From: Octopus sinensis | Lineage: Eukaryota | Length of the DNA: 64,000 nt | Direction: 5' to 3' | Assembly (NCBI RefSeq): GCF_006345805.1 | Contig: NC_043006.1 | Span: forward strand, 77,252,001 to 77,316,000 | Shown: positions 1,733 through 52,149 of the stretch, in pieces | How the letters are laid out: every line of letters begins with the position of its first letter | Numbering within the stretch: the stretch's first letter is position 1 | Made by a program: the position numbers and the translations under genes | The notes under the pieces: generated by a model | What the model was told of the DNA's origin: nothing | Seen by the model: only the letters and a program-made list of their open reading frames with translations | The model's database searches: none

Positions 1733-2952
1733 TATTATGAGGAGAGTCAATTTTTTGTTGAACCTTTCGCCTGAATGAATGTATTCTGGACGGTTTTCTG
1801 TAAAAGCCTAATGAAATTGTAAATGGTTAATCGAGTCCCGTGAGATGTTTTCTAAATTCAAATTTTGTACACAAGTGCGCGTGTGTGTATGTGTGTGTGC
1901 ACGCCCGTCTGTGTGTATGTATGTATATATACGTATATATAATGAAATAGAAAGCAATTAATTGATGCATAGCAAAAAGTATTTACAATTAATTCTTTAG
2001 CCTTGAGATACTAATCTGTTGGGAAAATGTCCTTAGATAAAACTAACTGTTCTATTGACAAGCAACATGAGTGCATGTACATCATTGTATTATTGTACAT
2101 CGTTTTTTACAGGCGTCTGATGAAGGAGACACTGTCTTGTGCATAAGCTAATCGTTTCTATCTCCTACAATAATAATCATATCTAAGCTACAAAAATGTA
2201 ATTTGTTTTAACATGTATCACTTGATTAATATTCAGTATTATTTCATAACTATCATGAACGCCTTCTTCTCATCTAAATCGAAGCAGCATTTTTATAGCT
2301 TTACAGTGAAATATTTTATTGTGTACTTTATGGATAAAAATAAGATTATTGGCCCAGTTATACCATCCTAAATTTTAACTGGCATTTTTCGCGCAGTTGA
2401 ATTTTAAAGGAATTTTAAAGAAAAATTGTGTCCCATATTTTGTACTTTAATATCTAATGCCATAATGGATACACGTAAACAGACGCAAGTCAAAATAAAT
2501 TTTAAAATGTGTTTAGACACAAACTCACACGCTGATATGTGAGTGTGATATAATGTCGTATATTTGTATCCATTTCTAATATATTTCTAAGACATAAATA
2601 TAAGCTGTTATGTACTGATAGAATTTTGATTGCTTTTACTTCATTGGTCAAAGCAGCTCACCTTCAGAGACATAACGTCATGCATGCATCACCAAAATCT
2701 ATAATGCTATGCAGTAACTCAGATATGTTTTCGTAAATTTCAACGAAATTTTGCAATGTATTTTTCATTCAACAGCTTCCAGGCAGTCATTGGTTGTCAA
2801 TGTGTTCGGATTTTCAAAGGAAAATATGAAAAGATCTCAACACATGAGCTTAGAAACGTCATAACCTGAAAGCATTCGCATCGGGTTGAAAGGATCCTGT
2901 GTGTACTTATTAAAAATCATTTAAGCATTGACGAAATATGTTTGCTTAACAA

Positions 2953-3345
2953 ATATATATATATATTATATATATATATACACACATATGTGTATATACA
3001 TACATATATATATATATATATATATATATATATATATATATAATATATATATATATATATACATATACATGTATGTATGTGTGTGTGTGTGTGTGTGTAC
3101 GTATACATATACATACATATATGTATATAAAATTACATATATAGGTACACAGATATATACATAGGTGAATAGAGGAATGTATTAATAAGTAGATATTACA
3201 TATATTTGTTGTTTCGAGAGATGTGTACGTACATAGGCACAGATAGAGTTGTGACACAAACATACACATATGCATACGTATATATGTGAGTGTGTATGTG
3301 TGAATGTGTATGTGAATGTGTGTATGTGCGCGTGCGTGCATATAT
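2953..3345. repeat. (TA)n/(TG)n microsatellite region
   Basis: Read directly from the sequence. Confidence 0.9.
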
Positions 3346-3934
3346 GTATGTATGCCTGTACGAATAAATATAAGGATGTAAGTACGTAAGTAAGTATGCG
3401 TGCATTTATTATTTAATGTATGTACGTATGCATTCATATAGTGAAAGATTGAGAGATGTGGATCTATGTTTGCCTGCATATAAGTGATTTGTTCATGCAT
3501 TCAAAACGCAACATGAAAGAGAATAAATCCTCAAAATTAATCGACTTAGTTTTTATAGAATTTTCTATAGGGTTGTGTATTTGGTGATCAAATATGTGTA
3601 GTAAAAGTATGAAGTATATTTGTTCATTCGTTATGGTTTCCCCATCACGAAATGATAAATTAAATTTGGATTGAATACGTACCAACATCTTAAATCCATC
3701 GCCCCTTACAAACATATAGACACGTCAACGTGTGTTTGTCTCTGTGCTTGTATGTGTACATATGTGTATCTTTGGGTGTATCTGTGTGTATGTGATGAAA
3801 CTATTCTTAGAAATATGGTATACAAGATCGCAGTGATTATTCAATTAATCGCAGTGCATTCCAAATATTTTCCGAACATATACGTACATTCAAAGGTACA
3901 TACGTACATATAAACATTAAATGATACACACTCA

Positions 3935-4405
3935 TGCATATATATATATAAACACACACACACACACACACACATATATATATATATATATATATATATA
4001 TTCATACATATATATATATATATATATATATACATACATATATATATACATACATACATATGCTGTGTGCATATATGTACATATATATATATATACACAT
4101 ACATGTACGTTTGTATATATATTATATATATTCATATGTGAATATACATATATCTATCCATCTATCTATCTCTCCCTCTCTCTCTCTCCCTGTATATATA
4201 TATATATATATATATATATATATATATATATATATATATATGCACATACACATAGATACACACACACCTATATATATATATATTATATATATATATATAT
4301 ATATATATATATATAATATATATATATATATATATATATATATATGAACACACATACACACACATATGCACAAACACACACACACACACACACACAAACA
4401 TATAT
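3935..4405. repeat. (TA)n/(CA)n microsatellite region
   Basis: Read directly from the sequence. Confidence 0.9.
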
Positions 4406-4407
4406 AA

Positions 4408-51010: not shown

Positions 51011-51112
51011 TATATAATATAAATTAAAAGGAGGGTGAAAAATTGTATATTAATTTAGTGGCTAGCGTAAGGGAGTTCACTTTTAGTGGATTCCCTCTCA
51101 TATATATATATA

Positions 51113-51300
51113 TTATTTATTTCAGTCATTTGACTGTTGTCATACTGGAGCACCGCCTTTAGTCTAGCAAATCGACCCCAGGACTTATTCTTTGTAAGCC
51201 TAGTACTTATTCTATCGGCGTCATTTGCCGAACCGATAAGTTGCGGGACGTAAACACACCAGCATCGGTTGTTAAGCGATGCTAGGGACACACACACACA
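51113..51300 (-). mobile_element. 3' half of SINE family B
   Basis: TTTCAGTCATTTGACTG...GGAGCACCGCCTTTAGTC...AAACACACCAGCATCGGTTGT. Confidence 0.8.
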
Positions 51301-51804
51301 TACATATACAAACACCTGCATATATATATATTATATATATATATATATATATATATATACATGTGTGTGTGTGTGTGTGTGTGTAAATATGAAAGTGAAT
51401 ATATATATATGTACACACACACACACAGACGCGCGCACATATGCACACATATATACATAAATAGATATCAATCCGGTTTACAAGTTCAAGTTTATACCTC
51501 TAAATATCGGGGCCTTGGAACATGTAACACACTACCTACATACCAATCTTGAGAAATTAGGCTTCTCAAAACCAGAAAGGAGAAAGCTAATTCGAAAACT
51601 ACAGATCCATCAGTGGAACTGAAATTATCTATAAAACTTACCAGAAGTTTATCATCTAAATACATATGAGCATGTCTAGACATGCAAGTTTATGCATGAG
51701 TATGCATACATAAAGCATACAAATCTGCTCATACATACTTAAGTATATATGTGTATATATATATATATATATATATATATATATATATATATATAATATA
51801 TATA

Positions 51805-52149
51805 GCAATTAAGGACAACTACTTAATAAGGAAAACTTAACAAGAAATTGTCAGGTAGATAGCGTAAAAACCTCATAAGAGAAAAAATTTCGAAAATAAT
51901 TATTTCTTATTGAACATATTAATTTATATATAGAGGGCATTATACATACATGCCAGAAGGCTGATGAGTACGTAAGTATGAAATCACTGTGATACAGGTC
52001 TATATTTTTTTAAATGTCTTACTTTGAAAAATTGCATTCGGTGGGATTAGTAATATTTTTGGTAGAAATGACTAATTGTCCCTCTTAGCGTTTGGCATGT
52101 ATGTATAATGCCTTCTGGCATGTATGTATAATGCCCTCTATATATAAAT
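51805..52149 (+). mobile_element. Short Penelope-type repeat with a hammerhead core and an inversion junction, between (TA)n tracts
   Basis: Perfect 40-bp inverted repeat 51922-51961 vs 52110-52149; 20-bp tandem TGGCATGTATGTATAATGCC at 52093 and 52116; hammerhead core at 51961-51994. Confidence 0.7.
51961..52000 (+). ncRNA. Hammerhead ribozyme core lacking the 5' strand of stem I
   Basis: CTGATGA-GTAC-GTAA-GTAT-GAA-ATCAC-T-GTGAT-A-CAGGTC: CUGAUGA and GAAA are intact, stem II has a GNRA loop and stem III is self-complementary. Confidence 0.7.

What the first reader, a model, noticed from the sequence alone, without database searches (positions are those of the whole stretch)
2117..52000. About seven unrelated short elements share a minimal hammerhead ribozyme motif: a diverse retrozyme-like system
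Seen: CTGANGA/stem II/GAAA/short self-complementary stem III motifs at 6385, 18767 (with a mirror copy at ~18292), 27404 and 51961, decayed ones at 12638-12676(-) and 43705, and a weak one at 2117 (CTGATGA-AGGAGA...TCTCCT, no GAAA). Their stems and flanks differ, so pairing is conserved rather than sequence. Four sit at inversion junctions and several abut (TA)n. Established: minimal type I hammerheads with palindromic stem III occur in Penelope-like terminal repeats and animal non-LTR retrozymes and can act as dimers. Inference: this genome hosts many non-autonomous hammerhead families using PLE RT (a relic is at 1-355). Whether these families have been described is unknown to me.
Basis: partly seen in the sequence, partly recalled or inferred. 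Interest (0 to 1): 0.75.

Follow-up and report, generated by a model that had tools for sequence, protein, structure and literature searches.

The report
Hammerhead-tipped Penelope ends and two retrozymes
Six of the seven sites are worn copies of common octopus jumping-gene families that carry a predicted self-cutting RNA motif: four are tail ends of protein-coding Penelope-type retrotransposons, two are small non-coding repeats that likely borrow those enzymes, and both kinds are already known in other animals.

Summary
The motif is real at six of seven sites; 2117 is a single-copy chance match. No window copy is an intact hammerhead, but each belongs to a repeat family with hundreds to thousands of search candidates. 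In 600 kb sampled elsewhere in the genome a strict descriptor gave 14 perfect-core hits against 0.2 in shuffles.

The 'many non-autonomous families' reading holds for two of six. Families at 18767, 27404, 43705 and 12640 run upstream into GIY-YIG endonuclease frames (RT also shown for the first two), so they are 5'-truncated 3' ends of Penelope-like elements (Neptune-type and Hydra-type). Families at 6385 and 51961 are ORF-less 355-nt and 480-nt units, terminally redundant or tandem, i.e. non-LTR retrozyme-like, with the same two-ended inverted insertion pattern as the coding families.

One unexpected pattern: all four coding families carry a family-wide core change (A9C, A6U, U4C, U4C), while both non-coding units keep the canonical core. 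The sample is small and cleavage is untested.

Both kinds are published for other animals, and this scan found them before on other octopus DNA. New members of known kinds.

The parts
1..355 (-). Decayed N-terminal part of a Penelope-like RT ORF (KGLNF and ADKG motifs); continues past the window's left edge into RT motifs and breaks off at (TA)n; not linked to any of the six families
   Evidence: Six-frame reading; motif names from PMC8557442 passages; recognised by eye, no profile hit
2117..2166 (+). Rejected site: CTGATGA and a 6-bp stem, no GAAA, single copy
6107..6594 (+). Family A insertion: inverted arm 6107-6183 plus 1.15 units (6184-6594) of an ORF-less 355-nt terminally redundant unit; retrozyme-like
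6385..6430 (+). Family A type I hammerhead; family core canonical in 27 of 32 copies; 10-nt palindromic stem III; window copy has GAAG for GAAA; predicted cut after 6424
12597..12746 (.). Family F fold-back stump: last ~75 nt of a Hydra-type PLE plus its inverted copy, junction inside the hammerhead
12640..12676 (-). Family F hammerhead; family core has U4C in 22 of 27 parsed copies; window copy also has G8A
18166..18936 (.). Family B insertion: two inverted 346-nt arms (98%) of the 3' end of a young Neptune-type PLE
18767..18810 (+). Family B hammerhead; A9C in 24 of 25 copies; stem III is not a full palindrome (two A.A mismatches in a dimer)
18292..18335 (-). Mirror copy of the family B hammerhead
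27332..27535 (+). Family C stump: last ~205 nt of a Neptune-type PLE with a ~1-kb 3' UTR, in (TA)n
27404..27441 (+). Family C hammerhead; position 6 is T in 66 of 69 copies and A in none; N7 varies
43607..43835 (+). Family E stump: 3' end of a Hydra-type PLE (bounds approximate)
43706..43758 (+). Family E hammerhead; position 4 is C in 46 of 54 copies; window copy further decayed (C3T, GTAAA)
51800..52155 (+). Family D insertion: inverted arm 51800-51961 plus direct arm 51961-52155 of an ORF-less 480-nt tandem unit; retrozyme-like
51961..52001 (+). Family D hammerhead; canonical core in 40 of 41 copies; 7-bp stem I in the family, 5' strand lost here at the inversion; predicted cut after 51994

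Best explanation
The six real sites are decayed insertions of six separate repeat families with a minimal type I hammerhead motif: four are 5'-truncated 3' ends of endonuclease-coding Penelope-like retrotransposons, and two are ORF-less 355-nt and 480-nt retrozyme-like units that are likely copied by a Penelope-like RT/endonuclease from a tandem or circular RNA. Shown: family membership, upstream coding frames for B, C, E, F, tandem or terminally redundant ORF-less units for A and D, (TA)n targets, and two-ended inverted insertions. Inferred: a PLE enzyme nicks (TA)n and primes reverse transcription at one of two fixed points near the RNA's 3' end; early termination or a strand switch leaves short stumps and fold-backs, which is why the hammerhead region is what survives. 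Inferred and untested: in A and D two hammerheads pair through the palindromic stem III, cut tandem transcripts to unit length, and the unit is ligated to a circle that templates longer-than-unit insertions. In B, C, E and F the core carries a family-wide substitution, so cleavage is likely slow or absent there, and these families spread regardless.
For: Genome sample of 60 x 10 kb: 14 perfect-core and 12 one-mismatch hits against means of 0.2 and 0.7 in 10 local dinucleotide shuffles. B: endonuclease frame upstream on the hammerhead strand in 12 of 30 loci; L272 holds 708 stop-free codons with RVT_1 (E 5e-4) and GIY-YIG (E 3e-3), both under Pfam cut-off, ending about 520 nt before the hammerhead. 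C: 19 of 30 loci picked by the endonuclease stretch have the C hammerhead within 1.5 kb downstream on the same strand; L344 holds 564 codons with RVT_1 above cut-off (E 8.5e-8) and GIY-YIG (E 7e-3). E: GIY-YIG frame (E 3e-4) with the CxCx5C linker and CxxC/CxH motifs that PMC8557442 section 11 gives for Hydra. F: frame 35% identical to E's (E 6e-26) with the same motifs. A: direct repeat with period 353-357 in 13 of 30 loci, 340-345 in 3 more; segments up to 527 nt, two 3' ends. D: 480-nt tandem up to 1,613 nt. Two-armed insertions use one short and one long 3' end in 18 of 20 D, 9 of 11 A and 22 of 23 F cases. Units folded as circles: z -8.6 (A) and -4.0 (D), 30 shuffles.
Against: No cleavage, circle or transcript was shown. 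RT was not reached for E and F (endonuclease only), and Pfam gave no family for F's frame. For A and D, only 30 loci each were examined, all picked by likeness to the window copy, so a rare coding parent is not excluded, and no partner PLE was identified. No A locus of 30 holds two complete hammerheads in direct tandem. 5' ends of D segments are scattered round the unit and do not cluster at the predicted cut. The two-end count for B was obscured by microsatellite matches (39 rows, about 6 clean). Rfam did not call these motifs.
Confidence: 0.85

Rival explanations
1. All six are non-autonomous hammerhead elements (a retrozyme-like system) mobilised by PLE RT in trans.
For: Most copies are only 150-500 nt long, sit in (TA)n and carry no ORF. 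A and D fit.
Against: B, C, E and F continue linearly upstream into coding frames in their longest copies, with ragged 5' ends and no fixed unit period.
Confidence: 0.04
2. All six, including A and D, are PLE terminal repeats; the tandem A and D units arise from DNA-level or template-jump duplication of a terminal repeat, and the hammerheads play no part in their spread.
For: PLEs form partial tandems and inversions (PMC8557442, passages). A never exceeds 1.5 units in 30 loci. 5' ends do not mark the cut site. Eight of nine predicted frog retrozyme dimers did not cleave in vitro (10.64898/2026.07.22.740005, part 3).
Against: A and D sequence runs round a closed unit with no ORF in 30 of 30 loci each; insertions start at many points of the unit and exceed unit length; cores stay canonical (27 of 32, 40 of 41); units fold far more stably than shuffles as circles.
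Confidence: 0.1
3. The motifs are chance matches in repeat-rich, AT-rich DNA.
For: True for 2117. No window copy is intact, and the window gives only 1 strict hit.
Against: 14 against 0.2 perfect-core hits in the genome sample; family majorities restore stems and, in A and D, the full core.
Confidence: 0.01

Closest known systems
Minimal type I hammerheads in PLE terminal repeats (Cervera and de la Pena 2014, PMC4209133; parts 1-2 of 4 read)
   Same: Type I topology, short stem I, unpaired base between A9 and stem II (B, C, E, F), palindromic stem III, many heterogeneous families per genome, mostly single motifs from truncated PLEs, pairs on opposite strands 100-700 bp apart.
   Different: Octopus is not among the hosts named in the parts read. 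The family-wide A6U, U4C and A9C cores are not mentioned there; the core variant described is U3-A8.
Neptune-type EN+ PLEs (families B and C; clade features from PMC8557442 passages)
   Same: RT followed by a C-terminal GIY-YIG, Cx4CxxC linker fitting CX2-5CxxC, inverted truncated 5' copy, one-sided tail, microsatellite targets, hammerhead near the 3' end.
   Different: Hammerhead core is non-canonical family-wide. Clade assigned by linker motif only; no tree built.
Hydra-clade PLEs (families E and F; PMC8557442 section 11 read)
   Same: CxCx5C linker, CxxC and CxH motifs in the endonuclease, (TA)n insertion, hammerhead near the 3' end.
   Different: Paper reports canonical hammerheads; both families here have U4C. 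3' UTR is about 1.3 kb. RT motifs (RWK, DKT) were not reached.
Animal non-LTR retrozymes (Cervera and de la Pena 2020, PMC7229834, part 2 of 6 and passages; Li, Clavereau and Pollet, 10.64898/2026.07.22.740005, parts 1-3 of 5) (families A and D)
   Same: ORF-less low-GC (44%, 33%) units of a few hundred nt, type I hammerhead per unit, tandem copies (D), strongly self-paired predicted circle, proposed PLE dependence.
   Different: Long palindromic stem III (10-11 nt); PLE-style inverted arms with two fixed 3' ends; A not seen as a full dimer; circular RNA and cleavage not shown. No cephalopod among Li et al.'s 35 species as given in the main text.
Natural hammerhead core variants (Perreault et al. 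2011, PMC3088659, passages)
   Same: U4C is cited as slow in vitro yet sufficient for viroid infectivity; A6C cleaved at under 0.1 per min.
   Different: A6U and A9C are not in the passages seen; here the variants are fixed in retrotransposon families with hundreds to thousands of search candidates.

Membership tests
Type I minimal hammerhead | Core CUGANGA, GAAA, UH | tested here: met
   Families A (27 of 32) and D (40 of 41)
Type I minimal hammerhead | Core CUGANGA, GAAA, UH (families B, C, E, F) | tested here: not met
   A9C 24 of 25, position 6 never A in 69, U4C 46 of 54 and 22 of 27: hammerhead-derived variants, not canonical members
Type I minimal hammerhead | Stems I and II pair; stem III self-complementary for dimer folding | tested here: met
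   Duplex energies A -13.3, D -10.1, E -11.1, F -7.8, C -1.7 kcal/mol; B fails at +1.4; stems
Type I minimal hammerhead | Self-cleavage at the predicted site | not testable with these tools
   Only assembled contigs were available
Type I minimal hammerhead | Rfam Hammerhead_1 match at gathering score | tested here: not met
   0 matches in L099 and L007; none in 150 of 405 rows shown for the window
EN+ Penelope-like element (B, C) | Single ORF with RT then GIY-YIG upstream of the hammerhead repeat | tested here: met
   L272, 708 codons; L344, 564 codons
EN+ Penelope-like element (E, F) | GIY-YIG endonuclease upstream of the hammerhead repeat | tested here: met
   E; F; by likeness to E, no Pfam hit
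EN+ Penelope-like element (E, F) | RT domain | tested here: inconclusive
   Three extended E copies showed no RT frame of 120 codons or more; F loci end at the linker
EN+ Penelope-like element | 5' truncation, inverted 5' copy, tail at one end, microsatellite target | tested here: met
Hydra clade (E, F) | CxCx5C linker with CxxC and CxH motifs | tested here: met
   against PMC8557442 section 11
Neptune clade (B, C) | Phylogenetic placement of RT | not tested
   Assigned from the Cx4CxxC linker only
Non-LTR retrozyme (A, D) | ORF-less unit of a few hundred nt with a type I hammerhead | tested here: met
   355 and 480 nt
Non-LTR retrozyme (D) | Two or more consecutive units with complete hammerheads | tested here: met
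   L093, L099, L102, L103, L108
Non-LTR retrozyme (A) | Two or more consecutive units with complete hammerheads | tested here: inconclusive
   Longest direct segment 527 nt (1.5 units) in 30 loci; whole family not seen
Non-LTR retrozyme (A, D) | Expressed as linear and circular unit-length RNA | not testable with these tools
   No RNA holder on record; contigs cannot tell circle from tandem transcript
Non-LTR retrozyme (A, D) | Loop 1-loop 2 tertiary contacts; target-site duplications | not tested
   Targets are microsatellites, so duplications are hard to read

The most novel reading that the evidence does not exclude
This genome is a natural experiment on what the Penelope hammerhead is for. 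Coding PLE families spread with cores changed at positions 4, 6 or 9, while ORF-less circles that depend on cutting keep the canonical core. Either the ribozyme is dispensable for autonomous PLEs and essential only for their retrozyme parasites, or A6U and U4C are working natural variants: in family C the free position N7 has diversified (35% non-majority) while the other seven core columns stay within 4%, and two Hydra families only 35% alike in endonuclease share U4C.
Probability: 0.3. Interest if true: 0.55.

Novelty: new member of a known kind. Interest (0 to 1): 0.33.

Why it matters
As a class the finding is known: minimal hammerheads in PLE ends, many families per genome, and ORF-less retrozymes proposed to ride on PLEs are all published. 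What this window adds is six named families in one octopus genome that can be tested side by side. The function of PLE hammerheads is stated to be unclear (PMC8557442, passage). A young coding family with A9C and a broken stem III palindrome, an abundant one with A6U, two with U4C, and two canonical non-coding units give a ready panel for asking whether cleavage matters to PLEs or only to their parasites. The shared two-ended insertion pattern is sequence-level support for PLE mobilisation of retrozymes.

Tried and rejected
Rfam scan of the window: dominated by microsatellite matches to miRNA models; only 150 of 405 rows were visible. Repeat finder on the whole window: swamped by microsatellites; replaced by masked BLAST. 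Site 2117: rejected. Site 36066 (-), a one-mismatch descriptor hit: not followed. Hypothesis that 5' ends cluster at the cut site: not seen in D or A; both sets were picked with hammerhead-spanning queries, so the test is biased. Hypothesis that F is a MITE: rejected, since non-fold-back copies extend 1.6 kb upstream into an endonuclease frame. Link between the RT relic at 1-355 and the six families: none found; tblastn with six PLE frames from the loci gave no hit on it. Expression: no RNA holder listed. Contigs from four runs only guessed to be RNA cover the D unit and three join its end to its start, and three such runs cover family A but not its single-copy flanks; contigs cannot separate circle, tandem transcript or repeat DNA, so this is not used as evidence. 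Clade trees and a covariance model were not built. Lunse, Weinberg and Breaker 2017 is not held; I saw only its title in reference lists and a review's summary, and it may already list some of these core variants. Literature searches for these families: searches listed no paper describing octopus hammerhead families; the giant squid genome paper counts 235 Hammerhead_1 loci (PMC6962438, passage). Repbase and Dfam could not be searched. Supplements of the bioRxiv preprint were not seen; the supplement search of PMC8557442 showed only Naiad entries for Octopus in the places displayed (2 of 4).
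Full report
Setting. The window is G000:C10:77252001-77316000 of a 2.72-Gb animal assembly, 35% GC and rich in microsatellites. A retrotransposon protein from this genome is 94% identical to an Octopus vulgaris entry, so it is an octopus genome.

Observation. All stated coordinates hold the stated letters. 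None of the window copies is an intact hammerhead: a loose descriptor gave 0 perfect-core hits and 4 one-mismatch hits, and a strict one gave 1 hit against a mean of 0.04 in 50 shuffles. I therefore searched the genome with each site. Six sites gave 356 to 2,865 first-look candidates, of which 40 were scored and 25-30 fetched each; 2117 gave only itself and has no GAAA. I call the families A (6385), B (18767 and mirror), C (27404), D (51961), E (43706) and F (12640).

More than chance. I took 60 stretches of 10 kb at round coordinates on 21 large contigs without looking at content. The strict descriptor (core, stem I of 4 bp or more, stem II of 3 or more, fully self-complementary stem III) found 14 perfect-core and 12 one-mismatch hits in 600 kb; 10 local dinucleotide shuffles gave means of 0.2 and 0.7. 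Five of the 26 lie in one tandem array. Scaled naively this is of the order of 60,000 perfect-core motifs, a rough figure. Over the 1.52 Mb held at that point, 191 distinct hits fell into 20 clusters, 10 with two or more members; 12 clusters touch the sample, and at least two of those singletons look like chance.

Cores. A is canonical in 27 of 32 copies and D in 40 of 41. B has C at position 9 in 24 of 25. C has T at position 6 in 66 of 69 and A in none, and T in 20 of 20 hammerheads from loci picked by the endonuclease rather than the core (one repeats an earlier locus). E has C at position 4 in 46 of 54 and F in 22 of 27 parsed copies of 30 picked by upstream sequence; the minority T4 copies can arise by CpG decay (inference). 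Stem III pairs as an intermolecular duplex in A, D, E, F and weakly C, but not in B.

Four families are PLE ends. All families have a fixed 3' end 75-315 nt past the core and ragged 5' ends. B runs upstream into an endonuclease frame in 12 of 30 loci; L272 holds an inverted terminal repeat, 708 stop-free codons with weak RVT_1 and GIY-YIG hits, and the hammerhead about 520 nt after the stop; copies scored are 98-99% identical to the window copy. C was walked upstream through a ~1-kb low-complexity UTR; 19 of 30 loci picked by the endonuclease stretch have the C hammerhead downstream on the same strand, and L344 holds 564 codons with RVT_1 above Pfam's cut-off plus GIY-YIG. B and C have a Cx4CxxC linker, which fits the Neptune type in PMC8557442 (passages, and section 11); no tree was built. 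E and F reach endonuclease frames about 1.3 kb upstream with the CxCx5C, CxxC and CxH motifs that section 11 of that paper gives for the Hydra clade; E hits GIY-YIG at E 3e-4, F has no Pfam hit but is 35% identical to E. RT was not reached for E or F.

Two families are ORF-less units. A shows a direct repeat of period 353-357 in 13 of 30 loci and 340-345 in 3 more; its segments lie on a closed 355-nt unit, start at many points, reach 527 nt and end mostly at about +205 or +263 against (TA)n or other AT-rich sequence. D is a 480-nt unit in tandems up to 1,613 nt with ends at about +195 or +315. Folded as circles the units give -141.6 and -125.1 kcal/mol, z -8.6 and -4.0 against 30 shuffles. In two-armed insertions one arm uses the short end and the other the long end in 18 of 20 D, 9 of 11 A (two with a short end near +180) and 22 of 23 F cases; the B count was obscured by microsatellite matches, with about 6 clean cases among 39 rows. 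PMC8557442 describes an inverted truncated copy and a one-sided tail for PLEs, so the shared pattern points to PLE enzymes as the carriers of A and D. Against a stronger claim: no A locus has two full hammerheads in tandem, 5' ends do not mark the cut site, and no partner PLE was identified.

Mechanism. Shown: anatomy, coding frames, targets, end pattern, cores. Inferred from the PLE and retrozyme literature: target-primed reverse transcription at (TA)n with frequent truncation and inversion; for A and D, dimer cleavage through palindromic stem III, unit-length RNA, probable circularisation and longer-than-unit copying. Untested: any cleavage or RNA. For B, C, E and F, PMC3088659 (passages) reports U4C and A6C as slow variants; A6U and A9C were not in the passages seen. 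In C the free position N7 is 35% non-majority while the other seven core columns are within 4% (rank 7 of 220 columns; 21 columns reach 20%), a weak hint that the A6U core is still constrained. The contrast of 4 of 4 coding families changed against 0 of 2 non-coding is small, E and F are not independent, and other families in the sample have canonical cores with autonomy untested.

What is known. Minimal hammerheads in PLE ends, thousands per genome in many families, mostly from truncated PLEs, are described in PMC4209133 (parts 1-2 of 4). Tandem retrozymes, including in a mussel, are in PMC7229834 (part 2 of 6 and passages). Their PLE origin is argued in 10.64898/2026.07.22.740005 (parts 1-3 of 5). 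Searches listed no paper on these octopus families; Repbase, Dfam and Lunse et al. 2017 could not be checked. Earlier notes of this scan report octopus retrozymes with two-ended PLE footprints and PLE ends with hammerheads on other DNA; sequence look-ups for A and D returned nothing, nor did a word look-up for the core variants.

Verdict. Observation partly confirmed, interpretation partly supported. New members of two known kinds; interest 0.33. The family-wide core changes in coding PLEs are the one lead worth a bench test.

Noticed in passing
L209 / G000:C13:15000406-15003192: Tandem array of about 557-nt units, five strict hammerhead hits (four canonical) with a 6-nt palindromic stem III: a further retrozyme-like family.
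   Followed up: partly
L190, L197, L218, L236, L215, L199, L232, L189, L202, L229: At least seven further hammerhead families with canonical cores in the genome sample; coding status not tested.
   Followed up: no
window 48100-49400 and 49516-50812: Tandem duplication of about 1.4 kb at 99.7% identity; very recent or an assembly artefact.
   Followed up: no
window 4402-4576, 23832-24011, 29646-29899, 30154-30775, 54285-54458, 58589-58839, 61333-61560 and others: Many copies of 170-240-nt dispersed repeats, octopus SINE-like by recall.
   Followed up: no
window about 430-1100 (-): Decayed frames that resemble a Tc1/mariner transposase C-terminus (recognised from recall).
   Followed up: no
window 22440-22710: 15-nt minisatellite, 18 copies, 96% matches.
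   Followed up: no
L339 (just left of the window): The PLE relic breaks off at (TA)n and is followed by what reads as a family C-like stump on the opposite strand (seen in translation only).
   Followed up: partly
L102 and L118, upstream of the D insertion: Both D copies sit after the same 97% identical sequence with a zinc-knuckle-like coding stretch; a D insertion carried by, or duplicated with, another element.
   Followed up: no
L099:1322-1800, runs X1 and X3: One D variant with the same six or seven differences dominates contigs of two samples of one study; run type is only guessed to be RNA.
   Followed up: no
Family E, 140-300 nt upstream of the core: Internal 78-nt direct repeat in the 3' UTR.
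   Followed up: no
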